Notes: generated from the sequence alone by a model not told the origin. A stretch of 43,980 nt of DNA from Chloroflexota bacterium (GCA_024636135.1 JAGXHP010000046.1:1-43980), one strand, 5' to 3'; positions 243 to 22,839 are shown, counted from the first letter of the stretch. Numbers and translations: made by a program.

Positions 243-613
243 GCGCCGCCTTCGGCCACCCAGGCCCGAAGCGCCTCGGATGTGGTGGTCCACTCGTCGT
301 GCACGCGCTTTGCGGCATCTTCCCCGGCGCCAGCCAGCGATCCGCTGCGTGCGGTCAGCTCGAGCTCGCGGGCCGTTGCGGCGAGGCGAGAGGCGCCAAG
401 GGTTGCGCTGCTCGACTTGAGGGTGTGGGCGGGCCGGACGAGTGCTTCGGTATCCCCGGCGGCGACGGCCGCGTCGATTGCTTCGACGTGGCTGGCGCTG
501 TCCGCGAGGTACGCCTCGATCAGCTCGACGACGAAGTCTCGGTCCCCCTCCACGGAGGCCAGGAGCTCGTCAAGCACAGTTGCGTCCAGCGTCGCGCTGT
601 CAGGTTCGCTCAT
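239..613 (-). CDS. Histidine phosphotransfer (HPt) domain protein, 124 aa
   Basis: The motif [18 protein letters not shown] matches the HPt HxxKG/SxxxxxG signature within a predicted helical bundle. The start overlaps the kinase stop (ATGA at 610-613). Confidence 0.85.
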
Positions 614-3600
614 CGGCTCTGTCCCTTCGTTGCTGCGGACGACCTCGGAGCGCGTGCCAGGGCTGCTTGTAGCTCCGCCGGTCGGATCGGCTTGCTGATG
701 TAATCATTCATGCCGGCGGCCAGGCAGGCCTCGCGGTCGCCGGCCATCGCATTGGCCGTCATGGCAATGATCCAGACATCCTGGCCGGGCAGCTCGGCGC
801 GGATGCGGCGCGTTGCTCCAAGCCCGTCGAGCTCTGGCATCTGAACGTCCATCAGCACCACGTCGAAATCCTCGCGCTGCACGGCTTCGAGGGCCTGGAT
901 GCCGTCCTCGGCCAGCTCCGCCACGTAGCTGAATTGCTTCAGCAGGCGTGTCGCAAGCTTCTGGTTCACCGGGTTGTCCTCGGCGAGGAGGATCCGGAGG
1001 GGGTGCCGTTCACCGAGCGGCGACCCATCCGCCTCGACCGGAGCCCGGGCCGGAGTCTCGACCGACGCGCCGAGCAGGATGGTCGCGACGGTGTCATGAA
1101 GCGCGGACGGTTTCACGGGCTTGGCGAGCCAGGCTGAGATCGCGGTGCTCTCGCGGTCTCGAACGCCGATCGACGAGAGGATCACCACCGGAATGTTGCC
1201 GGAACCGTTGTCGCGGACCCGGCTGATCGCCTCCGCCAGCTCCAACCCGTCAAGCTCGGGCATGAGGAGATCGAAGAGGGCGATATCGAAGTGCTGTCCG
1301 CCTTGAATCCATTCGAGCGCGGCGGTCGGGTCGCCCGTTTCCCGAGGAACCATCCCCCACCGTGCCGTCTGCGCCACCAGGATTCGCCGATTCGTCGCAT
1401 TGTCGTCCACGATGAGGACCGATCGCCCGCTGAGATCTGCGTCGATCCTGGTCGGCCGACTGGCAGCCACCGCGTCGTCTGCCGCAACCGGCATGTTGAC
1501 CACGAGGTGGAATGCACTCCCCTCCCCCGCCACCCCGCTGCTCTCCGCCGTGAGCGAGCCGTCCATGAGCTCAGCGAGGCGTCGACTGATCGCGAGGCCG
1601 AGGCCGGTGCCGCCGTACCGTCGGGCAATCGAGGCGTCGACCTGGGTGAAGGATTGGAACAGCTTGCCGATCTTGTCCGCCGGAATGCCGATGCCGGTGT
1701 CACGGACGTCAACGCGCAGCTCGCAGCGGTCCTGGCGACGCCGGCCGTGGGTGGCCACCACGGCTCCACTGACGCTGACGACCACCTCGCCATGTTCGGT
1801 GAACTTCAGCGAGTTGGAGAGCAGGTTGAGAATCACCTGCCGCAGCCGGCCGGCATCGCCGATGAGATTCGCGGGCAGATCGTCGTCGATGGCGTAGATG
1901 AGCTCGAGGCCCTTTGCCGCAGCGGCGGGGGCCAGGATATCCAGCGACGCCTCGATGGCATCGCGGAGCACGAACGGCGTGCTCTCGAGCTCGACGCGAC
2001 CGGCCTCGATCTTCGAGAAGTCCAGCACGTCGTTGATGATCGTGAGCAGGGCGTCGCCCGACGTCCGGATGGTCTCCGCGAAATCGCGCTGCTCGTCATC
2101 CAGCTGGGTGTCGAGCAGCAGGCCACTCATGCCGATCACCGCATTGAGCGGCGTTCGGATCTCGTGGCTCATGGCGGCCAGGAAGCTGCTCTTCGCCTCA
2201 TTCGCCTGTTCGGCGACGGCCTTCGACTCGGTCGCATCGGTGAACAGACGGGCGTTCTGCAAGGCGATCGCCGCCTGCTGGGAGAGGCCGGTCAGGAAGC
2301 TGAGATCGGCGCCCGTGAAGGCATGCTGAACGGTGTCGCGCCACACCGCGAGCACGCCGACCACCTCCCCCTGCACGATGAGGGGTGCGGCCATCAGCCG
2401 TCCGTCCTCGTCGCCTGTTCCGGCAATGTGCTCGGTGCGATCATCGAGCGACGTGCTGTTCACGACTTCCGCGTCGCCGGTGAGGGCAACGGTTCCGATG
2501 ATGCCCTTGCCGCGCGTCACCGGATCGGCCCTGACTTCGTCTGCGATCGCACCGACGGCGATGACGCCCTCGAGCGTCTCACCGTCCTCACGAGGCAGGT
2601 AGAGCGCACTGGTGTCCGCGTCGAGAAGGGTCTGCGCGCGGTTCGCGATCAGCTCGAGGACAACGGACAGCTCGAGCGTGGATGACATCTCGCGGCCCAC
2701 ATCGGCGAGAGCGGCCATCTCCTCGGCCCGGCGGCGCGTCTCGGCATACAGCCGCGCGTTCTGGACGGCCACTCCCACGTTGGCCGCGATGGTGGCGAGC
2801 AGGCGAGCATCGGACTCCGTGAATCTGCCCTCGTGCGTCGTGCTCTGCACACTGATGACCCCGATGGCCCGGTCACCGGTGAGGATGGGAACTCCCAGCC
2901 ACGATTTGGCGAGCGTACCGGTCCCTCGCTGGCCGAGCGTTGCCCAGTCCGCCTCATTGTTGAGCAGCAACGTCTCGCGGCGCTCGATCACGCGCGAGGT
3001 CAGCCCCTCGCCGAGGGTGAGTGGCTCCTGCTCCTGGGTCGCACCTTGTTCGACGTAGTACGGGAAGTCCACGCGGCTCGCCTCTTCGTCGAGGAGCGCC
3101 ACGAACGCGATATCGGCCTCGAAGGCCTCGCGGGCCCGCTCCCCGACCACGGCGAGGAGGGGTCCGACCTCCATCTGCGCGGTGATCGCCTCCCCGATGT
3201 CATTGATCGTGCCGAGCTCCCCGACACGGCGGCGCGTCTCATCGAGCAGGCGCCCCGTCCGCAGCGCGACGCTCAGGCTCGCGGCGATGGTCGTGACCAG
3301 CGAGACGTCCCGCTCGTCGAAGGCGTATTCACGATCGAGGTTCTGGAGAGAGATGGTGCCGAGAATCTCGTCGCCCAGGCCGATCGGCGCGAAGATCGCA
3401 GACCGAGCCGGCTCGCCGAGAAGCTGGGCTGGCTGGCCGAGCTCGCTCGCGCGAGCTTCGAGGTCGTGGCTGACGAGCAGCGGCTCGCGCGTCTCGAGCA
3501 CGTGCTTGCGGAACCCCATGACGGGGATGGGATGGTCCGGTATCCGCACGCCGCGCTCGATGCCGAACGGGAAGTGCATGACTCCCTCGGCCTGGTCGAA

Positions 3601-6531
3601 GATGGCGATGTCCACCACGTGGGTGTCGAAGACGTCGCTTGCCCGCTCCCCAACCAGCTCGTACATCGCCTTGATGTCGAGCTCGGACGCCAGGCCGCGC
3701 TGAATGCTGTTCACGATCGCGAGCTCGCCGGCACGACGCTTTGTCTCGTCAAACAGTCGCGCGTTCTCGAGCGCAACGCTCAGGCTGGCGGCGAGCGTGG
3801 TGATCAGCCGGATGTCCCCATCGCCGAAGGCATCGGTGCGATCCAGGTTCTGGAGTGAGATGCGACCTCGGACTTCGCCACCGGAAATGAGGGGCGCGAT
3901 GAGCAACGCCTTGGCCGGCTCACCCTGGATGGTGGGTATCAACTTCAGACTCTGCTCCCAGGCTGAGACGTCGCTCACGTGGATGACCTGTCGGGTTCGG
4001 ATCACCTCGTCGGTCAGTGGTGATCCGTCGATCGGCGTGGGATCGTCGGGCAGGCGCTCGCCACGCTCGATCGTGTACGGATAGCGCACGAGGCCCGCGT
4101 CGCGATCGATGATCCCGATGTCAACCACCTGTGCGTCGAAGATCTCGCGGATCTTCTCGCCGACCAGCTCGTACATTGCCTGCATCTCGAGGTTCTGGGC
4201 GAGTCCTTCCTGGACGCTGTTGATGATCGCCAGCTCCGCGGCCCGTTCGTCTGTCTCGGTGAGCAGGCGCTTCGTTTCGTCGAACAGCCGCGCGTTCTCG
4301 AGGGCCACGCTCAGGCTTGAGGCGAGGGTCGACAAGAGGCGCACATCGCCATCGGAGAACGCACCTACACGGTCCAGATTCTGGAGAGAGATGCGACCCC
4401 GCACCTCGCCACCGCCCATCAGGGGAGCCATGAGCACGGATCTCGCCGGCTCGCCCTGGTGAACCTGGTTGGCGAGGTCTTCGCCCATCCAGGACATGAC
4501 GTCGTTCAGAAGCACCGGTTGTCGCTGTCGGAGGAGCTCCTGCGTCAGCTTCGAGCCCTCGATCGGCGTTGGTTTGTCCGGGTAGCGGATGCCACGCTCG
4601 ATCGTATACGGATACCGAACCACGCCCGCCTCGTGATCGATCATCCCGATGTCGACCACCTGCGCGTCGAAGATGTCGCGGATCTTGTCACCGACGAGGT
4701 CGTACATGGCCTGCATGTCGAGGTTCTCGGCCAGGCCGCGCTGCACGCTGTTGATGATCGCGAGTTCCGCTGCTCGTTCGTCGGTCTCGGTGAGCAGGCG
4801 CTTCGTTTCGTCGAACAGCCGCGCATTCTCGAGTGCCACGCTCAGGCTCGATGCAAGCGTCGACAGCAGGCGCATGTCCCGCTCCGAGTAGGCATCGGTG
4901 CGGTCGAGGTTTTGAAGCGAGATCCGACCGCGCACGTCGCCGCCGCCCATGAGCGGGGCAAACAGCGCTGATCTCGGGCGCTCGCCCTGCACGATGAGCG
5001 GCAAGGCCTGCTCCTGGGTCCAGGCGTCAAAGTCGCTGATCAGGATCGGCTCTCGCGTGCGAATGAGCTGGTTCGTCGTCGCGGATTCGCCGAGGGCAGT
5101 GGGTTCGTCCGGCAGCCGGACCCCACGTTCGATCGTGTAGGGATAGCGCATGACGCCGGCGTTGGCGTCGATGATCCCGATGTCCACGACCTGGGCGTCG
5201 AAGATCTCCCGGATCTTTTCGCCCACCAGGTCGTACATCGCCTGCATCTCGAGGTTCTCGGCAAGACCCTCCTGGACGCTGTTGATGATGGCAAGTTCGG
5301 CAGCACGCTCGTCCGTCTCGACCAGCAGGCGCCGCGTCTCCTCGAACAGGCGCGCATTCTCGATCGCACCTCCCATGCTCGACGCGAGCGTTGCGAGCAG
5401 GCGTTCGTCGGCCTCGCTGAAAGCATCGGGCTTCTCGTGCTCCAGGTTCACGACCCCGAGCACCCGACCGCTGGCGAGGATCGGGACGCCGAGCCACGAC
5501 ACGCTGCTCTCGTCGTCCCCGGCGTAGCGTGCCACGGTGATCGGGCTATGGGCCGCCATTTCCTCCGCAGAGCCAAGGCGCAGGGGTCGCTGCGTGCGGA
5601 TCACGTGCGAGGTCAACCCCGGGCCGAGCTCGAACGGCTCGACGGGCACTGGCGTGCCTCGGTCGTACGAATATGGGAATGACAGGATGTTGGTCGCGGG
5701 ATCGTAGAGCGAGACGCCGACCGAGTCCGATTCGAAGACCGCCGCGATGCGGTCGCCGACAAGATCGATGATGCCGGCGAAGTCGAGCCTGTTCGCGAGG
5801 CCCAGCCCGATCTCGTTGATGAGCGCGAGCTCCTCGTTGCGCTGGCGCGTCTCCTCGATGGCTCGGACACGTGTCAGGGCCGTAGCAATGTGCTGGGCAA
5901 CGAAGGTCAGGAGCTCCAGGTCCCTGGTGGAGTGACGGCGATCCTCGCGGTAGCTCTGGATGACCACCGCGCCGATCGTCTGTCCCTCGGACCGCAGCGG
6001 CGAGCCCATCCAATCGACGCCGCTGACTCCGAGCATCTCCGCCTCGCCTCGCTCGACGATCTTCTCGTATTCGTCGCGCGTGAGCAGAACGGGCTCTCCC
6101 ATTCGCAGCAGGTATCCGGTCAGGCCGGCAGCCTGCCCAGAGCCAAGGGGTTCCCACCGATTCGGGTCGGGGATGTCGAGGTCGACCTCGTCGCGGTAGA
6201 ACGCGAAGTTGATCGCGTTACGGCGATCGTCGTACAGGGCGATGTAGAAATTGTCGGCGTACATCAGCTCGCCGACAATCCCGTGGATCGCCTCGTAAAA
6301 CGAGGGCATGTCCTGGGCCGCGCTCGCGGTCTCGGCGATGCGGTACAGGGCCGCCTGCATCCGCTCGCCGGACTCGGTCTCCGCGAGTCGCGCCTCGAGC
6401 TCCGCGATCCGCCGCTGTGCCACGGCCAGGTCGTCGCCGACCGTCTCGGATGGGGACGTCTTCCGGGTGGCGGCTATGGAACGACCCTCCTGCAGTTCAC
6501 GGGCGACGGGATTCGGCCGTGCGGCGGACAT
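610..6531 (-). CDS. Soluble hybrid sensor histidine kinase, 1,973 aa: N-terminal coiled coil, about 8 GAF domains, HisKA, HATPase_c, REC, REC
   Basis: - H-box [17 protein letters not shown] (His1456, nt about 2164-2166).
- ATP-lid DTGIGIP...[13 protein letters not shown].
- REC1 LIVDDNATN...[12 protein letters not shown]...LAKP (nt about 1087-1422).
- REC2 [10 protein letters not shown]...[12 protein letters not shown]...MTA...SKP (nt about 652-996).
- GAF array at aa about 60-1430 (nt about 2242-6354), with recurrent ...GVV/ISLQNLD...LL..LA...ALENARLF ends.
- No hydrophobic TM segment seen.
- The start at 6531 is not verified; Met58 is an alternative. Confidence 0.9.
3244..5343 (-). repeat. 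In-frame tandem repeat inside the kinase. Three 531-bp (177-aa) GAF units lie at 4813-5343, 4282-4812 and 3751-4281. A diverged 507-bp fourth unit lies at 3244-3750.
   Basis: The ENARLF boundary motif recurs at aa 391, 568, 745 and 922, an exact 177-aa period. The string ctcggtgagcaggcgcttcgtttcgtcgaacagccgcgc is read identically at about 4255-4293 and about 4786-4824. Confidence 0.85.
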
Positions 6532-14574: not shown

Positions 14575-16239
14575 TCAGACCTCCATCACGATCGGGAGGA
14601 TCATCGGGCGACGCTTCGTCTTCTGGTGGAAGTAGCGGCTGAGCGTGTCCCGAATCTTCGTCTTCACGTAGCCGGCCTCGGCGTTGTGCTCGTCCTCGTG
14701 CCGCTGGCGCAGTGCGTTCATGAGGTGATCGCGTGCGGCTCCCATGATCGGATCCTCGGGATCCGATAGGAATCCACGGCTGACGAGATCGGGCAGACCG
14801 ACCGGCTGGCCGGTCTTCGCATCGATGGTCAACGCCACCATCACGACGCCGTCGGACGCCAGCATGCGGCGATCCCGCAGGACCACCCCGTCGATCCCGT
14901 CGATCGCGGCGATCCCGTCGACGAGGACGGCGCCCGCGGTGACACTTCCCGCCATGCGGCCCCACTCGCCGTCGAAGTCGACCACCTGGCCGTTCTCAAG
15001 CACAAAGATCTTGTCGACGTCGACTCCGGCTCCCTCGGCCAGGAGAGCGTGCTGAACGAGCATCCGGTACTCGCCGTGGATCGGGATGAAGTGCCGAGGC
15101 TTCACGAGGCCCAACATCAGCTTGAGCTCCTCGCGCGAGCCATGTCCGGAGACGTGGCAATGCACGATCGGCTCGTAGTGGACCATCGCCCCTTCCTTGA
15201 ACAGGTTGTCGATCGTCTTGGCGACCGCCTCCTCGTTCCCGGGAATCGGGCTGGCCGAGACGATGACCGTGTCACCGGGCTCAATCGTGATGTTGCGGTG
15301 ATCGCGGTTGCTCATGCGTGTCAGCCCGCTCATCGGCTCACCCTGAGAACCGGTGGTCATGACCACGAGCTGATCCTTGGAGAGCCGCTGAAGCTGGTCC
15401 TTCTTGACCAGGGTGCCGTCGCGGGCGTCGAGGTAGCCTCGCTCGAGGGCGATCGCCGTGTTCTGCTCCATGCTTCGGCCGAGCGCCACCATCTTTCGCC
15501 CATGTGCCCAGGCGGCGTCGATCACCTGCTGGACGCGGCCGATGTTGCTGGCGAAGGTGGCCACGATCACCCGTCCGGGCGCCTCACCCACGAGGCGATG
15601 CAGGCTCTCGCCGACAGTCGTCTCCGAGAGGGTGTAGCCCTCCTTCTCGGCGCGCGTCGAGTCGGAGAGGAGGAACTCCACTCCCCGGTTGCCGATCTCG
15701 GCGATGAGGCCGAGGTCTGCGCGACGTCCATCGGGTGGCGTGTGGTCGAACTTGAAGTCGCCGGTATGCACGATCGTGCCGAGGCGGGTCGTGATCGCGT
15801 ACCCGACGCCATCCGGGATCGAGTGGTTCACCCGGAATGGGGTGATGCGGAATGAGCCGACCGCGAACTCCCGTCCCGGCTCGATGACGTGGAGCGGCGT
15901 CGAGTCGAGCAGCTTGTGCTCGCGCAGCTTGCCCTGCACGAGTCCCTCGGTGAGGCGCGTCGCGTAGATCGGCGTGCCGGGGATCTTGGGCAGGACGTAC
16001 GGCAGCGCCCCGGTGTGGTCCTCGTGGCCGTGCGTGAGGACGATGCCGCGCACGCGATCTCGGTTCTCGGCCAGATAGGTGGCGTCGGGGATCACGAGGT
16101 CGATGCCAAGCATCTCCGGCTCGGGAAACGCGAGGCCGCAGTCGACAACGAGGATCTCGTCGTCAACTTCGATGACGGTGATGTTCTTGCCGACCTCGCC
16201 CACCCCGCCGAGCGGGATGATGCGCAGGGAATCAGGCAT
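14575..16239 (-). CDS. rnj: Ribonuclease J (beta-CASP metallo-beta-lactamase RNase)
   Basis: Contains LRIIPLGGVGEVGKN...VVDCG..FP......GIDLVIPD..YL......GIVLTHGHEDHTGALPY. The HxHxDH motif and the 554-aa length are typical of RNase J. Confidence 0.92.
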   Translation of the reverse strand: MPDSLRIIPLGGVGEVGKNITVIEVDDEILVVDCGLAFPEPEMLGIDLVIPDATYLAENRDRVRGIVLTHGHEDHTGALPYVLPKIPGTPIYATRLTEGLVQGKLREHKLLDSTPLHVIEPGREFAVGSFRITPFRVNHSIPDGVGYAITTRLGTIVHTGDFKFDHTPPDGRRADLGLIAEIGNRGVEFLLSDSTRAEKEGYTLSETTVGESLHRLVGEAPGRVIVATFASNIGRVQQVIDAAWAHGRKMVALGRSMEQNTAIALERGYLDARDGTLVKKDQLQRLSKDQLVVMTTGSQGEPMSGLTRMSNRDHRNITIEPGDTVIVSASPIPGNEEAVAKTIDNLFKEGAMVHYEPIVHCHVSGHGSREELKLMLGLVKPRHFIPIHGEYRMLVQHALLAEGAGVDVDKIFVLENGQVVDFDGEWGRMAGSVTAGAVLVDGIAAIDGIDGVVLRDRRMLASDGVVMVALTIDAKTGQPVGLPDLVSRGFLSDPEDPIMGAARDHLMNALRQRHEDEHNAEAGYVKTKIRDTLSRYFHQKTKRRPMILPIVMEV

Positions 16240-16941
16240 TCAATGCTCCTGGAAGAGGGTCATCTGTTCGGCCTCGTCGGCTGCCGGGTCGGGACTCTGC
16301 TCCCGATCGACCGCCTCCTGGGCCTGGACCGATGCCGGTCGCTCTTCCGCGAGCGCCCGACGGGCGTCCAGCAGCGCCGCCGGCAGGCCTCGGATGTCAC
16401 GGAACAGCGTTTCGCGCAGCGAGGCCTGGTGCAGCGCCGCAGCAGGATGGTACATCGGGAAGACGTGCTGCCCGGTGAACGACCGACGAAGTTGCCCGTG
16501 GGCGCCGCCGATCCGAGCACCGGGCAGGTAGCGTTGGAGCGAGTGACGGCCGAGCGTCACCACGACCGCGGGCTGGAGAGCGCGCTCCTGTGCGTCGAGG
16601 TACGGGGCGCAGGCTGCCTTCTCCTCGGGCTCGGGATCGCGGTTGGCTGGCGGCCGGCACTTCACGACGTTCGTGATGAAGACGTCCGCCCGTGTCCAGC
16701 CGATCGCGGCCAGCAGCTCCGACAGCAGCTCGCCGGCCGGTCCCACGAACGGACGGCCCGTTCGATCCTCGCGCGCCCCTGGGCCCTCCCCCACGAGGAG
16801 AACGTCGCTCATGTCGTTTCCCTCGCCGGGGACCGCGTGCGATCGGCCGGCTGAGAGCGGACAGCGCGTGCAGGAGCGGACCGTGTCCGCGATCTCCGCC
16901 AGCGCCGTCGCGCTCCCTGCCGGCCCGCTCGCGTCGTCCAT
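16240..16941 (-). CDS. Uracil-DNA glycosylase, family 4
   Basis: Contains CTRCPL......VPGEG.....VLLVGEGPGAREDRTGRPFVGPAGELL...VFITNVVKCRPP.NR.P......C.PYL...HPAA, the family-4 UDG motifs. The stop abuts the rnj start with a 0-nt gap. Confidence 0.85.
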   Translation of the reverse strand: MDDASGPAGSATALAEIADTVRSCTRCPLSAGRSHAVPGEGNDMSDVLLVGEGPGAREDRTGRPFVGPAGELLSELLAAIGWTRADVFITNVVKCRPPANRDPEPEEKAACAPYLDAQERALQPAVVVTLGRHSLQRYLPGARIGGAHGQLRRSFTGQHVFPMYHPAAALHQASLRETLFRDIRGLPAALLDARRALAEERPASVQAQEAVDREQSPDPAADEAEQMTLFQEH

Positions 16942-16960
16942 CGCGTGCGGCCGGCCCGGC

Positions 16961-19570
16961 TCAGCTTCGGTCGCCGGCCTTGGCCATGTGTCGCTCCATC
17001 GCCGCGCGGCGGCTCAGGTTGACGCGACCCATGCGGTCGATCTCGGTCACGATCACCATCAGCTCGTCGCCGATGCTGACCACGTCCTCGACGCGCGGCA
17101 CCCGATAGTCGGCAAGCTGGCTGATGTGGACCAGCCCCTCCTTGCCGGGCAGGATCTCGACGAATGCCCCGAAGTTCATGATCCGGGTCACCTTGCCGAG
17201 GTACTCCTTGCCGACCTCGACGTCCTTCGTCAGGCCCTCGATCCACGCGATCGCCTTCTTGGCGGCCTCGCCGTCGGTTGCGGCGATCTGGATCGTGCCG
17301 TCGTCCTCGACGTTGATCTGCGTCCCGGTCTCGGCGGTGATCTGGCGGATCACCTTGCCACCGGCGCCGATGACGTCGCGGATCTTGTCGACGGGGATCT
17401 TCAGGGTCGTGATGCGCGGGGCGTACTGGCTCAGCTCCTCACGGCTGGCGCCGATGACCTCGGTCATCTTGCCGAGGATGTGGAGCCGTGCCGTCCGAGC
17501 CTGCTCGAGCGCGTCGCGCATGATCTCGGTCGTGATGCCGGCGACCTTGATGTCCATCTGCAGCGCGGTCACGCCTTCGGCGGTCCCGGTCACCTTGAAG
17601 TCCATGTCCCCGTAGGCATCTTCCTTGCCGGTGATGTCGGTCAGAACGGCGTAGCGGCCGGTCTCCTTGTCGTTGATCAGGCCCATGGCCGCGCCGGCCA
17701 CCGGTGCCTTGATCGGGACACCGGCATCCATGAGCGCCAGGGTCGAGCCGCAGGTCGATGCCATCGAGGTCGAGCCGTTCGAGCTCACGCACTCGCTCAC
17801 GACGCGGATCACGTACGGGAACTCGCTGACGTCCGGCAGCACCGGCACCAGGGCCCGCTCGGCGAGCGCACCGTGGCCGATCTCGCGGCGGCCGGGACCG
17901 CGCATGAAGCGCGCCTCGCCAACGGAGTACGGCGGCATGTTGTAGTGGTGCATGTAGCGCTTCTCGGTCTCCGGAGAGATCGTGTCCATGCGCTGCACGT
18001 CACTGCTCGGCCCCAGCGTGGCGATCGAGAGCGCCTGCGTCTGGCCGCGCGTGAAGAGGCCCGAGCCGTGGGTTCGCGGCAGGACGCCGACCTCGACGCT
18101 GATCGGCCGGATGGTCGTCGTATCGCGGCCGTCGATCCGGACGTTCTCGTTCAGGACGAGCTCACGCACGGTCGCCTTGGTCAAGGTGTCCATGAGGGAC
18201 GAGCCGATGCCGTGGCGTCGGCGGATGTCCTCGAGACGGTCGCCCTGCTCGGCGCGGTCGTAGTTCTCGCGCGCCCGGCGAACCTCGTCGGCGATGTCCT
18301 GGCGCAGTGCGTCCAGCCGCTCGGACAGCCCGCTGGTGAAGTGAAGGAACAGCTCGGCTGTGGCCTCCGCGTCGGGCATGGCGCGATGGGCGGTCGCATG
18401 GTCGCGGCCGAACACGAATCGGACGAGATCGGCAAGCTTGTAGCCGCCGGCATCGGGGTAGAGCTGGTACCCGAGCTGCAGCGTGTCGTACACGGCGGTC
18501 GGCTGCCAGGCCTTGTCGTTCGGGAGGTGACGGAGGACGAACGGGACGTCGAACGACGAGTTGTGTGCGACGACGGGCGTATCCCCGACCCAATCGACGA
18601 AGTTCGACAGGGCCTCGGCGGCCGTCGGTGCGTTGGCCACATCATCGGTCGTGATGCCGTGCACCTGGTGGCCGACGATCGGCCGGCCCGGGTTCACGAG
18701 CGACTCGAATCGGTCGACGATCTGGCCGTCACGGAGCCGCAGGGCGGCGACGTCCACGATGTAGCCGTGCTCGGGCTTCATGGCCGTCGTCTCGAGGTCG
18801 AAGACCACAAACTCATTGCGTGAGGCCGCCAGCTCGTTGCCGAGCTGGACGACGGACGGGGCCTTGGGTCCGACGAACGGCACCTTCTTCGGGCTGCCGG
18901 CGGATGCGACCAGCTTGTCCTGCAGGTCGATCGACTTCTGGAGCTCGCTGTGACCGTAGGCGATCGCATCGGCCATGACGGATTCGGGCAGGATGTTCGC
19001 TCCGGCCTCGACCATCATCACGGCGTCGCGGGTGCCGGCGACCACGAGATCCAGCTCGCTCTCCGCGAGCTCGGAGTTCGTGGGATTGGTGACGAACTCG
19101 CCGCCGATGCGACCGACGCGCACCGCACCGACCGGACCCATGAACGGGATGTGGCTGATGCTGAGCGCCGCGGACGCCCCGTTGAGCGCCAGGATGTCCG
19201 GGTCGTTCTCCTGGTCGGTCGACAGGACCGTCAGGACGACCTGGACGTCGTTGAAGTAGCCCTTCGGGAAGAGTGGGCGCAGCGGACGGTCGGTGAGGCG
19301 CATGGCCAGGATGGCCGCCTCCGACGGGCGTGATTCGCGCTTGATGAAGCCGCCGGGAATCTTGCCCGCGGCGTACATCCGCTCCTCGTAGTCGACGGTG
19401 AGCGGGAAGAAGTCGGCCCCTTCGCGGGGCTCCTTGGATGCGACCGCGGTCGCGAGAACAACGGAGTCACCGTATCGGACGATGACCGCGCCATCTGCCT
19501 GCTCGGCGAGCTTGCCGGCCTCCATGCTGAAGACCTTGCCGCCGATTTCGGCTTCGTGCTTGATTGCCAC
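16961..19570 (-). CDS. pnp: Polyribonucleotide nucleotidyltransferase (PNPase) with an inserted DEDDh exonuclease domain, 869 aa
   Basis: - PH1: [31 protein letters not shown]...DRPLRPLFP.
- PH2: [14 protein letters not shown]...[14 protein letters not shown]...[26 protein letters not shown]...[10 protein letters not shown].
- KH: [12 protein letters not shown].
- S1: [29 protein letters not shown].
- GTG start preceded by GGAGGAA (19574-19580).
- About 160-170 aa longer than ordinary PNPases. Confidence 0.92.
18335..18817 (-). other. DEDDh (DnaQ / RNase T-like) 3'-5' exonuclease domain embedded in PNPase (aa about 252-412)
   Basis: Three motifs occur in the canonical order and spacing. ExoI is FVVFDLETT (D258/E260, nt 18791-18799). 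ExoII is [13 protein letters not shown] (D341, nt 18548-18550). ExoIII is [17 protein letters not shown] (H395/D400, nt 18371-18388). Confidence 0.75.
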
Positions 19571-19619
19571 TGATTCCTCCAGAGATGTTGTGATGACATC
19601 CCACGCTCGATTCCCGTGG

Positions 19620-19636
19620 CGCGCTCGGTGAGCGCG
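19620..19636 (-). promoter_or_regulatory. GC-rich hairpin (7-bp stem CGCGCTC/GAGCGCG, 3-nt loop) in the pnp 5' leader
   Basis: Read directly from the sequence. It lies 50-66 nt upstream of the pnp GTG. Confidence 0.35.
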
Positions 19637-19681
19637 GCGTCAGGCGGGGGTGGGTGCCAGGTGAGTGCGTGCGATGTGCGA

Positions 19682-19709
19682 AACCCAGGTCCGACCCGGT
19701 TCCTGGGTT
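19682..19709 (-). terminator. Hairpin AACCCAGG-12nt-CCTGGGTT followed by UUU, just downstream of rpsO. Candidate partial terminator or processing site between rpsO and pnp.
   Basis: Read directly from the sequence: an 8-bp stem 15 nt after the rpsO stop. The U-tract is short, so termination would be leaky at best. Confidence 0.4.
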
Positions 19710-19724
19710 GATCGCGAAATGGTG

Positions 19725-19994
19725 TTAGCGGCGGAGCCCCAGGCTGCCGATGACGGTGCGGTACCGGTCCACGTCGTTGCGAACGAGGTACGCCAGCAGC
19801 CGCCGGCGCTGCCCGACGAGCTTCAGAAGCCCGCGGCGCGAGTGATTGTCCTTGGGGTAGCTGCGCAGGTGATCAGTCAGCGACTTGATCCGCTCGGTGA
19901 GAAGCGCAATCTGCACCTCGGGCGACCCGGTGTCTCCCTCGTGCGTGGCATACCCGTCGACGATTGCGCTTTTCGCGTCCTTGGCGAGCGGCAC
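19725..19994 (-). CDS. rpsO: 30S ribosomal protein S15 (89 aa)
   Basis: Contains ...[23 protein letters not shown]....[23 protein letters not shown]......RY..VI..LGLRR. The start is refined to GTG 19994. This gives the canonical 89 aa, with DTGS at the same position as in E. coli S15, and is preceded by GGAGGAA with a 5-nt spacer. The track start (20024) would lie 3 nt from a -10-like box. Confidence 0.9.
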
Positions 19995-20991: not shown

Positions 20992-21872
20992 GGGGCACCG
21001 ATCGTGGGCAGGACCTTCTCGGGTTGCAGGATGCCGTCCGTGATCGATCCCACGCCGATCACCTCACCGTCGACGAACACGGCCACCCGCCCGTCTCCGC
21101 CGGCCACGGCCCGGGCCGATCCGTGCCGGAAGGCGTCAGCCGCCTCGTCCCGGAGCACGACGCGGCGGAGCGGCAGGAGGTCACCGACGGACAGCACGGC
21201 CTCGGACAGGCGACCCTCGGATGCGAGGGTCTCGAGCATGTCGGGCGTGACGGCCTGATCCACCCTGAGGCCCGCGGCCTCGGTGCGGCGGAGTGCGCTG
21301 AGGTATCCCCCGCATCCCAAACGTTCGCCGAGGTCACGGGCGACAGAGCGCACGTAGGTGCCGGCCGCGCACTGCAGGTCGATTCGGACGTCGACGACGT
21401 CGGTGCCGCGCTCGATCGCAATCAGGTCGATGGCGCGGATCGTCACGGATCGTGCCGGGACGACGATCGGGTCGCCCGATCGGGCCGCGCGATGGGCGGT
21501 CCGGCCACCGAACTTCCGAGCGCTGAAGCTGGGCGGCTGCTGATCGAATGTCCCGACGAACTCGGCGAGCACAGACCGCACGTCATCGTCTTCCGGCATC
21601 GGGCCACTCCCCGGCTCGATCGGGCCCTCGGCATCGTCGGTCGCGCTCCGCGCCCCGAGGCGGATCACCGCGTCGTAGCGTTTGCGCCCGCCGGTGAGCT
21701 CCTCGCTGAACCGCGTCGCCGCGCCGACCAGGATCGGGAGGACGCCGGACGCCAGAGGATCGAGCGTGCCCGCATGTCCGATGCGGCGGGTCCCGCTCAG
21801 CCGTCGCAGCATGCCCACCATGTCGTGGCTCGTCGGCCCGACCGGCTTGTCGAGGTTAACGACCCCGAGCAT
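20988..21872 (-). CDS. truB: tRNA pseudouridine(55) synthase
   Basis: Contains GVVNLDKPVGPTSHDMV...LRR....RRIGHAGTLDPLASGVLPILVG, which includes the catalytic Asp motif. The start is set at ATG 21872 (MLGVVNL) and overlaps the upstream gene by 17 nt. Confidence 0.9.
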   Translation of the reverse strand: MLGVVNLDKPVGPTSHDMVGMLRRLSGTRRIGHAGTLDPLASGVLPILVGAATRFSEELTGGRKRYDAVIRLGARSATDDAEGPIEPGSGPMPEDDDVRSVLAEFVGTFDQQPPSFSARKFGGRTAHRAARSGDPIVVPARSVTIRAIDLIAIERGTDVVDVRIDLQCAAGTYVRSVARDLGERLGCGGYLSALRRTEAAGLRVDQAVTPDMLETLASEGRLSEAVLSVGDLLPLRRVVLRDEAADAFRHGSARAVAGGDGRVAVFVDGEVIGVGSITDGILQPEKVLPTIGAP

Positions 21873-22839
21873 CGGCTCGATCGAGCTCACGCTCGCACTC
21901 GGCCAGCAGCAGCGTCGTCGCCTCGTCGAGCGGGGCATCGATCGAGCACCCGGCCGCCCGTGCGTGGCCGCCGCCTCCGAACGCCCCGGTGATCGCCACC
22001 GCGTCCGCTCGGGCCGACGTGCGGACGCTGGCGCGGGTGTGCGTGGCGTCCACCTCCTTGAGCAGCACGGTGATGTCCGCGACCTTGGTCGTGGCCAGCA
22101 GGTCGATGAACCCCTCGGATGCCACCGCCTCGGTGCCGGTCTCGGCGAGCATGGCGTTCGTCATCGCCGCATACACCAGGCGGCCGTCGCGTCGCTGATC
22201 CATGCCGGCCATGATGCGACCCCAGAGGGCAAGGGTTCCGAATGGCTTGTCGGCGTAGATCGAGCGATGGATGGCGGCCAACGGCGCGCCGGCCGCGACG
22301 AGGTCCGCCCCGACTCGGAGCGTCCTCGGGGTCGCGTTCGGATGCGAGAAGGTGTGAGTGTCCTGCACGATGCCGGCAGTCAGCAGGGTGGCAATCGGGA
22401 CGTCCAGCTCGACCCCCAGGTCGGGGATGAGCAGTGCCATCATCTCGCAGGTCGCCGCCGCGTCGGCGTCGATCCAGGAAGCCACCGCACCGGCTCCGTC
22501 GTTCGACACGTGATGGTCGACGTTCACGATGCGAGCGCGTACCAGCCACTCGGCTGCCTCGGTGACGACCGAGCCCGTCCGGGACAAGGGGCCATCGAGC
22601 ACGACGGCGAGGTCCGGCTCGAGCTGGGGACGGGTTCGCACGGCCAACGCGCCGGGAAGCTCAACCAGGCTGGGCGGCACCGGATCGGCGGCGACCACCT
22701 CACCTTGCTTGCCGAGCTTCTCGACCGCCATGCACAGGGCCAGCGCCGAGCCGAGAGTGTCGGCGTCCGGATTCTCGTGGCAGATCGCGGTCACGCGGTC
22801 GGCGGCAAGGATGGCTTCCACAACGTCGGCGCGGCTCAA
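21856..22839 (-). CDS. nrnA: DHH/DHHA1 family phosphoesterase (NrnA-like oligoribonuclease / pAp or cyclic-dinucleotide phosphodiesterase)
   Basis: Contains ICHENPDADTLGSALAL, VNVDHH, DT..F....T and GGGGHARAAG (DHHA1). It sits between rbfA and truB, as in many Actinomycetota. The TTG start overlaps the rbfA stop (TTGA). Confidence 0.8.
   Translation of the reverse strand: MSRADVVEAILAADRVTAICHENPDADTLGSALALCMAVEKLGKQGEVVAADPVPPSLVELPGALAVRTRPQLEPDLAVVLDGPLSRTGSVVTEAAEWLVRARIVNVDHHVSNDGAGAVASWIDADAAATCEMMALLIPDLGVELDVPIATLLTAGIVQDTHTFSHPNATPRTLRVGADLVAAGAPLAAIHRSIYADKPFGTLALWGRIMAGMDQRRDGRLVYAAMTNAMLAETGTEAVASEGFIDLLATTKVADITVLLKEVDATHTRASVRTSARADAVAITGAFGGGGHARAAGCSIDAPLDEATTLLLAECERELDRADARGR

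What the first reader, a model, noticed from the sequence alone, without database searches (positions are those of the whole stretch)
18335..18817. PNPase with an in-frame DnaQ/RNase T-type (DEDDh) exonuclease domain inserted in its alpha-helical linker
**What the sequence shows**
- The 869-aa pnp ORF has every canonical PNPase module with catalytic motifs intact: both RNase PH cores, [30 protein letters not shown], a KH GxxG and an S1 domain.
- It is about 160-170 aa longer than ordinary PNPases, which are roughly 700-740 aa.
- The surplus is one contiguous block (aa about 252-412) at the start of the all-alpha domain that links the two PH cores.
- That block carries the three DEDDh motifs in the right order and spacing: [22 protein letters not shown] and [14 protein letters not shown].
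- Residual linker helices follow ([28 protein letters not shown]...), and the frame is continuous.
- Codon style looks native.

**Interpretation**
- One polypeptide would combine a phosphorolytic and a hydrolytic 3'-5' exonuclease. By inference the trimer would carry three of each.
- I do not know of a described PNPase with this architecture.

**Possible roles (inference)**
- Clearing the short limit oligonucleotides PNPase leaves behind.
- Trimming structured or modified 3' ends that stall phosphorolysis.
- DNA-end processing. PNPase has reported DNA-repair links, and a UDG gene starts 19 nt downstream.
Basis: partly seen in the sequence, partly recalled or inferred. Interest (0 to 1): 0.88.

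Follow-up and report, generated by a model that had tools for sequence, protein, structure and literature searches.

The report
PNPase with a built-in second exonuclease
The main RNA-degrading enzyme PNPase of a whole class of soil and freshwater bacteria (Limnocylindria, Chloroflexota) carries a second, apparently functional DEDDh-type exonuclease domain inserted in its middle, a conserved and real architecture for which my literature searches found no description or test.

Summary

**What is there**
- ORF 16961-19570 (-) is an 869-aa PNPase (TIGR03591, 984 bits).
- A Pfam RNase_T/DEDDh domain sits at aa 255-408 (E 2.8e-23 in the protein, 8.5e-25 alone).
- It is nested between helix 1 and helices 2-4 of the alpha-helical linker. 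The net gain is about 160 aa.

**It is not an assembly artefact**
- The same insertion, at the same position, occurs in at least 240 protein clusters.
- It also occurs in at least 26 GTDB species representatives, in two deep clades of Candidatus Limnocylindria.
- Every one of these loci has the canonical rpsO-pnp arrangement.

**It looks functional**
- All five catalytic residues (D258, E260, D341, H395, D400) are invariant, although the insert has diverged to 42-48% identity between clades.
- Insert dN/dS is 0.21-0.32, and GC3 is native.
- AlphaFold gives a confident, rigid alpha-domain plus DEDDh module (pLDDT 94.8, pTM 0.91).
- Its closest folds are the exonuclease domains of S. aureus DinG, PolC and Pol III epsilon.

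**What remains inference**
- No paper found describes the architecture, though databases already annotate it automatically.
- Substrate and role are inferred. The most likely role is a phosphate-independent hydrolytic 3'-5' exonuclease working alongside phosphorolysis in RNA decay. A DNA or R-loop role is the main rival.

It is a new variant of a known kind.

The parts
16961..19570 (-). pnp CDS, 869 aa: PNPase with nested DEDDh exonuclease
   Evidence: ORF. TIGR03591 scores 983.7 bits against a cutoff of 525. Pfam architecture. At least 240 homologous clusters share the same architecture.
18947..19528 (-). First RNase PH core (RNase_PH + RNase_PH_C, aa 15-208)
   Evidence: Pfam PF01138 at aa 15-142 and PF03725 at aa 145-208. 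Aligns to solved PNPases over aa 7-233.
18818..18871 (-). Alpha-domain helix 1 and a 4-residue linker (aa 234-251)
   Evidence: AlphaFold helix at aa 237-248, followed by beta-strand 253-261 of the insert.
18335..18817 (-). Nested DEDDh (DnaQ/epsilon/PolC-type) 3'-5' exonuclease domain, aa 252-412
   Evidence: - PF00929, E 8.5e-25, full-length profile match.
- TIGR00573 scores 79 bits against a cutoff of 71.5.
- Foldseek matches the DinG, PolC and epsilon exonuclease domains at rmsd 2.0-2.7 A.
- dN/dS is 0.21-0.32.
18785..18811 (-). Exo I motif FVVFDLETT (catalytic D258, E260)
   Evidence: D258 and E260 are invariant in 48 sequences spanning both clades and in alignment A2.
18536..18574 (-). 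Exo II motif [13 protein letters not shown] (catalytic D341)
   Evidence: F340 and D341 are invariant; H336 is nearly invariant.
18347..18388 (-). Exo III motif [14 protein letters not shown] (H395, D400; H-x4-D, i.e. DEDDh)
   Evidence: H395, R396, A397 and D400 are invariant.
18146..18334 (-). Alpha-domain helices 2-4 (aa 413-475)
   Evidence: AlphaFold helices at aa 415-432, 439-453 and 457-475. PF03726 profile positions 55-81 match aa 457-483.
17423..18145 (-). Second RNase PH core with the phosphorolytic site (RREIGHG 561-567, [13 protein letters not shown] 596-608, [10 protein letters not shown] 654-663)
   Evidence: The motifs are invariant across both clades and align to solved PNPases.
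17237..17410 (-). KH domain (aa 721-778)
   Evidence: Pfam PF00013, E 7.3e-12.
17006..17221 (-). S1 domain (aa 784-855)
   Evidence: Pfam PF00575, E 8.8e-18.
19725..19994 (-). rpsO (ribosomal protein S15), the canonical upstream partner of pnp
   Evidence: Read from the sequence. rpsO lies immediately upstream of pnp in every related locus whose DNA covers that region (25 of 26).

Best explanation
**Shown**
- This is the housekeeping PNPase of a Limnocylindria bacterium.
- It acquired, once in the ancestor of the class, an epsilon/PolC/DinG-type DEDDh 3'-5' exonuclease domain.
- The domain sits between helix 1 and helix 2 of the alpha-helical linker. Its connectors are very short (about 4 and 2 residues), so it forms one rigid module with the helical bundle.
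- All PNPase modules and motifs are intact.
- All five DEDDh metal-binding/general-base residues are invariant, and the domain is under purifying selection.

**Inferred**
- In solved PNPases the helical domain lies on the ring face opposite KH/S1 and lines a side pore to the phosphorolytic site. By inference, the trimer carries three hydrolytic active sites on that distal face.
- Most likely function: a phosphate-independent hydrolytic 3'-5' exonuclease acting in cis with phosphorolysis during RNA decay. It would take over 3' ends or short fragments that PNPase handles poorly or releases.
- This would do in a single polypeptide what other systems achieve by assembling separate proteins: PH ring plus Rrp6/Rrp44, PNPase plus RNase D, PNPase-SUV3 plus REXO2.
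For: **Architecture**
- Pfam and NCBIfam domain calls.
- The insertion point is defined against solved PNPases.

**Lineage-wide occurrence, native locus**
- At least 120 clusters at 87-97% identity, plus at least 120 clusters of a second clade that includes Ca. Limnocylindrus. All carry PF00929.
- 26 GTDB species representatives show the order N-core, insert, C-core.
- rpsO lies directly upstream of pnp wherever the upstream DNA is held (25 of 26 loci).

**Single origin**
- The PNPase inserts are monophyletic among 81 DEDDh domains (133/200 bootstraps; clade 1 200/200, clade 2 198/200).
- Core and insert dN correlate across pairs (Pearson 0.96).

**Functional constraint**
- D258, E260, D341, H395 and D400 are invariant, while only 20 of 161 insert columns are invariant. 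My own hypergeometric estimate of that coincidence is about 2e-5.
- dN/dS is 0.21-0.32 for the insert, against 0.18-0.21 for the core and 0.35-0.49 for the remaining alpha helices.

**Fold and rigidity**
- The model of aa 234-475 has pLDDT 94.8 and pTM 0.91.
- Foldseek matches the exonuclease domains of S. aureus DinG, PolC and epsilon.

**Literature**
- Position and role of the helical domain: PMC2723993.
- Relatives of this DEDDh subtype can act on RNA:
  - B. subtilis DinG degrades RNA in RNA-DNA hybrids, and ssRNA with Mn2+ (PMC12525004).
  - Listeria DinG removes unprocessed rRNA (PMC12774634).
Against: - No biochemical data exist, and the substrate (RNA or DNA) cannot be read from the sequence.
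- The closest characterised relatives are mainly DNA exonucleases: PolC and epsilon proofreaders, DinG and ExoX.
- Orn, RNase T and REXO2, the classical RNA-acting DEDDh enzymes, do not reach E <= 0.001 by sequence against the PDB.
- A DHH/DHHA1 NrnA-like gene lies in the same gene cluster. It could already cover nanoRNA clearance.
- No model coordinates were available. The position of the exonuclease site relative to the channel or side pore is inferred from the literature, not measured.
- Whether these genomes also hold an insert-free pnp copy could not be checked.
Confidence: 0.5

Rival explanations
1. DNA- or R-loop-directed role. [quoted passage not shown] This would give PNPase, which has reported links to DNA repair and R-loop processing, a hydrolytic partner for repair or replication-stress tasks rather than for bulk RNA decay.
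For: - The best profile and structure matches are DNA-acting DEDDh domains:
  - The exonuclease domain of the NF005906/PRK07883 DEDD + UvrC-like fusion protein (141 bits).
  - The PolC proofreader.
  - DinG, epsilon and ExoX.
- The nearest non-PNPase genomic relatives are Bacillaceae PolC.
- B. subtilis DinG prefers ssDNA and RNA-DNA hybrids over ssRNA (PMC12525004).
- Human PNPase is linked to R-loops (PMC10362022 abstract).
- A family-4 UDG gene follows pnp by 19 nt in this window and throughout clade 1.
Against: - The host protein is a complete RNA-decay enzyme in the rpsO-pnp operon, flanked by RNA-metabolism genes: truB, a DHH/DHHA1 gene and RNase J.
- UDG adjacency is not conserved in clade 2, where an asd-like gene intervenes or UDG is absent from the fetched DNA.
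- Sugar specificity in DEDDh enzymes is often loose. REXO2 shows no RNA/DNA preference on dinucleotides (PMC6900737 abstract).
Confidence: 0.25
2. Tail editing. PNPase also polymerises NDPs into heteropolymeric 3' tails. The nested exonuclease would trim or limit those tails, or reset stalled 3' ends, much as the DEDDh domain nested in PolC edits that enzyme's own product.
For: - The insert is of the PolC-proofreader type, and in PolC that domain is itself nested inside a polymerase.
- The mounting next to the PNPase catalytic core is rigid.
- PNPase's polymerase activity is established knowledge (e.g. PMC12599292 abstract).
Against: - This is pure analogy, with no direct evidence.
- The phosphorolytic site already reverses tailing.
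- The geometry could not be measured.
Confidence: 0.07
3. Non-catalytic module. The DEDDh fold serves only as an RNA/nucleotide-binding or protein-docking platform, or as a regulator of the side pore, without hydrolysing anything.
For: - The helical domain that hosts it is thought to gate NDP and phosphate access to the active site (PMC2723993).
- The insert evolves faster than the PNPase core: 45% against 69% identity between clades.
Against: - All five catalytic residues, plus neighbouring motif residues (T261, T262, F340, R396), are invariant across both clades, while 88% of insert columns vary.
- Inactivated DEDD domains typically lose these residues (general knowledge).
Confidence: 0.08
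4. Artefact: a chimeric assembly, a frameshifted gene fusion, or a recent mobile insertion with no functional meaning.
For: Several metagenomic representatives are frameshifted inside the insert (P0121, P0128, P0129, P0148).
Against: - More than 240 intact clusters from NCBI, ENA, JGI and Logan carry identical junctions. Some sit on contigs of up to 2.2 Mb.
- 26 species representatives carry it.
- GC3 is native and selection is purifying.
- The insertion position is the same in two clades that share only 42-48% identity in the insert.
Confidence: 0.01

Closest known systems
Canonical bacterial PNPase (TIGR03591; e.g. E. coli 3CDI/3GCM, C. crescentus 4AM3, S. aureus 5XEX)
   Same: - Two RNase PH cores, the phosphorolytic-site motifs, and KH and S1 domains.
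- The rpsO-pnp operon.
- 36-42% identity to solved PNPases, with TM-scores (normalised by target length) of 0.7-0.87.
   Different: - Carries a 160-aa DEDDh domain between helix 1 and helix 2 of the alpha-helical linker.
- No solved PNPase chain (maximum 784 aa by sequence) has such an insert.
PolC-type DNA polymerase III, with a proofreading DEDDh domain nested inside the polymerase
   Same: - The same DEDDh subtype: T. maritima PolC exonuclease 2p1j at E 2e-20, 9qrn at rmsd 2.3 A, and 41-42% identity to Bacillaceae PolC.
- In both cases the exonuclease is a nested insertion in a larger nucleotidyl-transfer enzyme.
   Different: - The host enzyme is an RNA phosphorylase, not a DNA polymerase.
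- No PHP or polymerase context.
- The substrate is unknown.
DinG with an N-terminal DEDDh exonuclease (S. aureus 8ZEF, B. subtilis, Listeria)
   Same: - Best Foldseek hit (E 1.3e-11, rmsd 2.7 A).
- The domain acts 3'-5' on ssDNA and, depending on the homologue and conditions, on RNA, RNA-DNA hybrids or rRNA precursors.
   Different: There it is fused at the terminus of a helicase. Here it is nested in a PH-ring exonuclease.
DEDD exonuclease + GIY-YIG/UvrC-like fusion proteins (NCBIfam PRK07883 set, NF005906)
   Same: - Best NCBIfam profile for the insert (141 bits over the exonuclease part).
- A full member occurs in Chloroflexota: Dictyobacter L080, 505 bits against a cutoff of 495.
- This family is a plausible donor.
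   Different: Only the exonuclease domain matches. There is no GIY-YIG part, and the score is far below the family cutoff of 495.
Eukaryotic RNA exosome (Exo9 PH ring + Rrp6 DEDD exonuclease + Rrp44)
   Same: A PH-fold ring with an S1/KH cap, combined with hydrolytic 3'-5' exonucleases, one of them of the DEDD superfamily (PMC3838930).
   Different: - In the exosome the ring is catalytically dead and the nucleases are separate subunits. Rrp6 sits on the cap side.
- Here the ring keeps its phosphorolytic sites.
- The DEDDh domain is covalently nested, and by inference it lies on the face opposite the cap.
PNPase working with a separate DEDD exonuclease: Caulobacter degradosome (PNPase + RNase D) and human mitochondria (PNPase-SUV3 + REXO2)
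   Same: Functional pairing of phosphorolytic PNPase with a hydrolytic DEDD-family 3'-5' exonuclease in RNA decay (PMC4245959; PMC7261184 and PMC6521605).
   Different: - Those partners are separate proteins of other DEDD subfamilies: RNase D is DEDDy, and REXO2/Orn are dimeric DEDDh enzymes.
- Here a single polypeptide carries an epsilon/PolC-type domain.

Membership tests
PNPase (TIGR03591 / NF008805 equivalog) | Whole-protein score above the curated equivalog cutoff | tested here: met
   TIGR03591 scores 983.7 bits (cutoff 525) and NF008805 scores 980.7 bits (cutoff 471), each in two stretches split by the insert.
PNPase (TIGR03591 / NF008805 equivalog) | Duplicated RNase PH cores with an intact phosphorolytic site in the second core | tested here: met
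   - PF01138 and PF03725 each match in 2 stretches.
- [20 protein letters not shown] and [10 protein letters not shown] are invariant in 48 sequences and align to solved PNPases.
PNPase (TIGR03591 / NF008805 equivalog) | C-terminal KH and S1 RNA-binding domains | tested here: met
   PF00013 at aa 721-778 and PF00575 at aa 784-855.
PNPase (TIGR03591 / NF008805 equivalog) | All-alpha linker domain between the PH cores | tested here: inconclusive
   - PF03726 matches only profile positions 55-81, at 22.6 bits (cutoff 24.6).
- AlphaFold nevertheless shows four helices (237-248, 415-432, 439-453, 457-475) totalling about 64 aa, the normal domain size, split by the insert.
PNPase (TIGR03591 / NF008805 equivalog) | Homotrimeric ring with a central channel | not testable with these tools
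   Only monomer models were possible and no coordinates were returned. This needs a multimer prediction or cryo-EM.
DEDDh / DnaQ-like exonuclease superfamily (Pfam PF00929; TIGR00573) | Exo I (D-x-E), Exo II (D) and Exo III (H-x4-D) motifs in order | tested here: met
   D258, E260, D341, H395 and D400 are present and invariant in both clades.
DEDDh / DnaQ-like exonuclease superfamily (Pfam PF00929; TIGR00573) | Profile score above the curated cutoff | tested here: met
   PF00929 scores 88.6 bits (cutoff 24) over the full-length profile. TIGR00573 scores 79 bits (cutoff 71.5).
DEDDh / DnaQ-like exonuclease superfamily (Pfam PF00929; TIGR00573) | RNase H-like alpha/beta fold of DnaQ-type exonucleases | tested here: met
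   The model has pLDDT 94.8. Foldseek matches 8zef, 9qrn, 2ido, 2gui and 8h2f at probability 1.00, rmsd 2.0-3.4 A.
DEDDh / DnaQ-like exonuclease superfamily (Pfam PF00929; TIGR00573) | Metal-dependent 3'-5' exonuclease activity | not testable with these tools
   Requires an enzyme assay of wild type against D258A/E260A.
Oligoribonuclease / RNase T / REXO2 (RNA-acting dimeric DEDDh enzymes) | Significant sequence similarity to Orn, RNase T or REXO2 | tested here: not met
   - No Orn, RNase T or REXO2 chain reaches E <= 0.001 in the PDB sequence search. The hits are PolC, DinG, epsilon, ExoX and Cas-associated DnaQ.
- None is among the best 25 NCBIfam families.
- RNase T appears only as a weaker fold match, from rank 16 down.
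DNA polymerase III epsilon subunit (TIGR01406 / PRK05711 equivalogs) | Score above the equivalog cutoff | tested here: not met
   TIGR01406 scores 73.8-75.8 bits (cutoff 222.7) and NF004316 scores 64.9-68.1 bits (cutoff 196). The relation is at domain level only.
PRK07883 DEDD exonuclease + GIY-YIG (UvrC-like) fusion proteins | Full-length match including the UvrC-like nuclease part | tested here: not met
   NF005906 scores 141 bits (cutoff 495) and only profile positions 7-167 are matched. True members L062 and L080 score 505-730 bits.

The most novel reading that the evidence does not exclude
The fused enzyme is a self-contained bacterial 'mini-exosome'. The three DEDDh sites would be rigidly mounted at the side pore or exit face of the PNPase ring. 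They would receive RNA 3' ends or limit oligonucleotides directly from the phosphorolytic chamber.

The machine could then switch between, or couple, phosphorolytic and hydrolytic decay. For example, it could degrade RNA completely, or degrade it when phosphate is scarce in the oligotrophic soils and lakes where Limnocylindria live. This would be substrate hand-off in cis, of the kind the eukaryotic exosome achieves with separate subunits.
Probability: 0.25. Interest if true: 0.8.

Novelty: new variant of a known kind. Interest (0 to 1): 0.62.

Why it matters
- **Two chemistries that are normally separate.** PNPase is one of the most conserved and best-studied RNA-decay enzymes. Phosphorolytic and hydrolytic 3'-5' exonucleases are normally separate proteins that cooperate through complexes: the degradosome, the exosome, and the mitochondrial PNPase/REXO2 pair.
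- **A natural fusion to experiment on.** A natural, lineage-wide covalent fusion, with both active sites conserved, gives a simple system for asking how the two chemistries are coupled. It could also show what limits PNPase (structured ends, limit oligonucleotides, phosphate supply) and what the poorly understood alpha-helical domain and its side pore do.
- **A taxonomic marker.** The insert is a clean molecular synapomorphy for Limnocylindria, an abundant, uncultured soil and freshwater class.
- **An annotation problem.** Many copies are auto-named 'DNA polymerase III epsilon subunit family exonuclease', which hides the housekeeping pnp gene.

Tried and rejected
- **Assembly artefact or chimera.** Rejected. 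The junctions are identical in more than 240 clusters and 26 species representatives. Composition is native and selection is purifying.
- **Degenerate or inactive domain.** Judged unlikely. All five catalytic residues are invariant.
- **Recent or repeated horizontal insertion.** Rejected. The insertion position is the same, the inserts are monophyletic, and core and insert divergence correlate. Within-clade correlation is weaker (Spearman 0.39 and 0.67).
- **UDG adjacency as functional linkage.** Not conserved in clade 2.
- **Rfam and tRNA scans of the window.** Nothing found.
- **Fold of the rpsO-pnp leader.** z = -1.8, not significant.
- **Foldseek with the full-length model.** It returned only PNPases, so a second model of aa 234-475 was needed to see the DEDDh neighbours.
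- **First bootstrap script.** It timed out and was rewritten.
  - Scanning whole Limnocylindria genomes for a second pnp or for orn, rnt, rnr and rnd.
  - Finding the nearest insert-free relatives, because hit lists are capped at 120 and were filled by fused proteins.
  - Measuring distances in the models, because no coordinates are returned.
- **Literature.** Seven searches and one targeted read found no description of the architecture.
Full report
**1. Observation**

The window holds an 869-aa ORF on the minus strand (16961-19570, GTG start). A GGAGG lies 7 nt upstream of the start.

Pfam finds the following:
- RNase_PH twice and RNase_PH_C twice.
- KH_1 at aa 721-778 and S1 at aa 784-855.
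- A sub-threshold tail of the PNPase alpha domain (PF03726 profile positions 55-81, at aa 457-483).
- Between the first PH core and that tail, a full-length RNase_T/DEDD match (PF00929, aa 255-408, profile 1-164/164, E 2.8e-23).

The 161-aa block named in the finding (18335-18817, aa 252-412) scores E 8.5e-25 on its own.

NCBIfam identifies the protein as the PNPase equivalog: TIGR03591 scores 983.7 bits against a cutoff of 525. The match is split into two stretches, and the second maps aa 428-856 onto profile positions 260-688.

Solved PNPases of 705-731 aa align to aa ~7-233 and ~437/459-856. For Coxiella PNPase the unaligned linker is 48 aa against 208 aa here, a net gain of 160 aa.

The quoted Exo I, II and III motifs, the continuous frame and the 19-nt gap to a family-4 UDG gene are all as described.

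**2. Not an artefact: a lineage-wide trait**

Protein searches:
- A search with the whole protein returned at least 120 clusters at 87-97% identity, 854-892 aa long. Every one carries PF00929. They come from NCBI, ENA, JGI and Logan, some on contigs of up to 2.2 Mb. Where named, they are Candidatus Limnocylindria.
- An exhaustive search with aa 201-490 revealed a second, divergent set, about 41% identical in this region (P0123, 864 aa).
- Searching with P0123 gave another 120 or more clusters of 858-871 aa (plus one 729-aa truncated entry), all with PF00929. Their names include Ca. Limnocylindrus sp. and Ca. Limnocylindrales.

Genome scan:
- A scan of GTDB species representatives with an alignment of the insert found 26 loci in which PNPase N-core, insert and C-core follow one another.
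- Ten of these (clade 1) have inserts 70-88% identical to the window. Sixteen (clade 2) are 42-48% identical.
- Three record titles point to other phyla. They are probably mis-binned.
- Loci L027-L080 are other DEDDh proteins with no PNPase.

Synteny:
- rpsO lies directly upstream of pnp in every locus whose DNA covers that region (25 of 26).
- The window shows the classical cluster: nusA, infB, DHH/DHHA1, truB, ribF, rpsO, pnp.
- This is therefore the native housekeeping locus.

A 2026 genomics paper on Limnocylindria describes two sister families, CSP1-4 and Limnocylindraceae. It does not mention PNPase or any exonuclease.

**3. Anatomy**

- AlphaFold on a 48-sequence alignment of both clades gives a modest full-length model (pLDDT 72.7). 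Within it, aa 240-480 are at about 80-95.
- A separate model of aa 234-475 is very confident (pLDDT 94.8, pTM 0.91).
- The order of elements is: helix 237-248, a 4-residue linker, the DEDDh alpha/beta fold (strand 253-261 through helix 397-412), a 2-residue break, then helices 415-432, 439-453 and 457-475.
- The non-insert helices sum to about 64 aa, the size of a normal PNPase alpha domain. This is therefore a clean nested insertion after helix 1.
- The short connectors and the high pTM indicate a rigid alpha-plus-DEDDh module (inference).
- Foldseek places the module next to these exonuclease domains:
  - S. aureus DinG (8zef, rmsd 2.7 A).
  - PolC (9qrn, rmsd 2.3 A).
  - A Cas-associated DnaQ (8h2f).
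  - Pol III epsilon (2ido, rmsd 2.0 A).
  - ExoI, ExoX, RNase T and TREX2 follow.
- The full-length model matches only PNPases.
- Among solved chains matched by sequence, none exceeds 784 aa.

**4. Constraint and history**

Conservation:
- Across 48 sequences from both clades, D258, E260, D341, H395 and D400 are invariant. So are T261, T262, Q302, H304, G305, F340, D362, T363 and R396.
- Only 20 of the 161 insert columns are invariant. I estimate the chance that all five catalytic columns are among them at about 2e-5 (hypergeometric).
- The H-x4-D form of Exo III makes this a DEDDh domain.

| Measure | PNPase core | Insert | Remaining alpha helices |
|---|---|---|---|
| Identity of clade 2 to the window | 0.69 | 0.45 | 0.27 |
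| dN/dS (NG86), clade 1 | 0.18 | 0.21 | 0.35 |
| dN/dS (NG86), clade 2 | 0.21 | 0.32 | 0.49 |
| GC3 in the window | 0.92 | 0.88 | 0.91 |

dS is probably underestimated at 90% GC3, but the ranking of the three regions is informative.

Origin:
- In a neighbour-joining tree of 81 DEDDh domains the PNPase inserts are monophyletic (133/200 bootstraps). Each clade is well supported (200/200 and 198/200).
- Core and insert dN correlate over all pairs (Pearson 0.96, Spearman 0.81).
- Together with the identical insertion point, this argues for one acquisition in the Limnocylindria ancestor, followed by vertical descent.

Possible donor:
- The best NCBIfam profile for the insert is the exonuclease part of the DEDD + UvrC-like fusion family NF005906 (141 bits).
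- A full member of that family occurs in Chloroflexota (Dictyobacter L080, 505 bits against a cutoff of 495).
- The nearest genomic non-PNPase relatives are Bacillaceae PolC, at 41-42% identity.
- A donor of this type is plausible but not shown.

**5. How it most likely works**

Shown: a motif-complete PNPase and a motif-complete, selectively maintained DEDDh domain share one polypeptide.

From the literature (Nurmohamed et al. 2009, PMC2723993):
- The helical domain lies on the torus face opposite S1/KH.
- It is dynamic.
- It forms part of a pore that gives a second route to the phosphorolytic site. That pore probably serves NDP and phosphate traffic.

Inference:
- The trimer displays three hydrolytic sites on that distal face, beside the side pores.
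- My preferred reading (confidence about 0.5) is that the domain adds a phosphate-independent hydrolytic 3'-5' exonuclease to the RNA-decay machine.
- It would act on 3' ends or short fragments that PNPase stalls on or releases.
- Elsewhere the same pairing is assembled from separate proteins:
  - Exo9 with Rrp6 and Rrp44 (PMC3838930).
  - Caulobacter PNPase with RNase D (PMC4245959).
  - Mitochondrial PNPase-SUV3 with the DEDDh enzyme REXO2 (PMC7261184 and PMC6521605).

Relatives of this DEDDh subtype can act on RNA:
- Listeria DinG removes unprocessed rRNA (PMC12774634).

**6. Rivals**

- **DNA or R-loop role (about 0.25).**
  - For: the closest characterised relatives are DNA exonucleases, and UDG abuts pnp in clade 1.
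  - Against: in the inspected clade-2 locus an asd-like gene separates pnp from UDG, some clade-2 loci show no UDG in the fetched DNA, and the surrounding genes are RNA-centred.
- **Editing of PNPase-made tails, by analogy with PolC (about 0.07).** Pure analogy.
- **Non-catalytic module (about 0.08).** Disfavoured by the invariant catalytic residues.
- **Artefact (about 0.01).** Refuted.

The specific 'nanoRNA clearing' idea is neither supported nor excluded:
- The insert is not of the Orn/RNase T/REXO2 type by sequence.
- A DHH/DHHA1 gene with a weak NrnA match (81 bits against a cutoff of 350) sits in the same cluster.

**7. Comparison with what is known, and novelty**

- Membership in PNPase and in the DEDDh/DnaQ-like superfamily is met on every feature I could test.
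- Membership in the epsilon, Orn/RNase T and PRK07883 equivalogs is not met.
- I found no paper describing a PNPase with a nested DEDD exonuclease.
- The library searched is incomplete. The architecture is visible in public databases, with precomputed Pfam hits and JGI names such as 'DNA polymerase III epsilon subunit family exonuclease'.
- I rate it a new variant of a known kind: real, ancient, conserved and unstudied, built from two well-known modules.
- Interest is 0.62. An RNA-decay specialist would find a class-wide covalent fusion of phosphorolytic and hydrolytic exonucleases notable and directly testable. The function is still inferred, and domain fusions of DEDDh modules are common.

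**8. Limits**

- No coordinates were returned, so no inter-site distances could be measured.
- No trimer model was possible.
- No whole-genome scan was possible for a second pnp or for other RNases.
- The nearest insert-free relatives were not reached.
- dN/dS rests on a simple NG86 estimate under extreme GC3.

Noticed in passing
window 21856-22839 (-): A DHH/DHHA1 protein sits in the nusA-infB-truB-ribF-rpsO-pnp cluster. Its NrnA match is weak (NF053633, 81 bits against a cutoff of 350). It may be a nanoRNase encoded next to pnp, which bears on the 'limit oligonucleotide' idea.
   Followed up: partly
window 14575-16941 (-): A family-4 (Fe-S type) UDG (16240-16941) is followed without a gap by RNase J (14575-16239). 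In clade-2 loci the UDG and RNase J genes also lie close together, about 0.2-0.3 kb apart, downstream of pnp. They sit about 1.2 kb from pnp; in L012 an asd-like gene (L012 5964-7094) fills that gap.
   Followed up: partly
window 610-6531 (-): A 1973-aa hybrid histidine kinase with eight GAF-domain stretches, HisKA/HATPase_c and two receiver domains.
   Followed up: no
window 16643-18823 (+): A 726-aa ORF runs antisense to pnp. It is typical of the shadow ORFs seen in 68% GC DNA. There is no evidence that it is a gene.
   Followed up: no
window 19571-19724 (-): The rpsO-pnp leader contains a hairpin (AACCCAGG...CCUGGGUU) just after the rpsO stop. The fold of the whole leader is not significantly stable (z = -1.8). 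It could be a terminator or processing site like the E. coli pnp leader.
   Followed up: partly
P0121, P0128, P0129, P0148 (metagenome representatives of the fused PNPase): Several database representatives are frameshifted inside or around the insert and then return to frame. These are probably indel errors in GC-rich assemblies. They fragment the family in 50%-identity clustering.
   Followed up: no
P0130, P0132, P0133, P0134, P0146, P0150, P0154: The same DEDDh subtype occurs in many other multi-domain contexts:
- A 1631-aa PolC-like protein with two tandem copies.
- Three copies plus what looks, read by eye and not scanned, like a GIY-YIG/UvrC-like nuclease region.
- Two copies plus a DinG helicase.
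- Tandem copies with a BRCT-like tail.
   Followed up: no
L013, L021, L026: Three contigs carrying the fused pnp are titled Verrucomicrobiia, Anaerolineaceae and Polarisedimenticolia. Their PNPase is typical of clade-2 Limnocylindria, so these short contigs are probably mis-binned.
   Followed up: no
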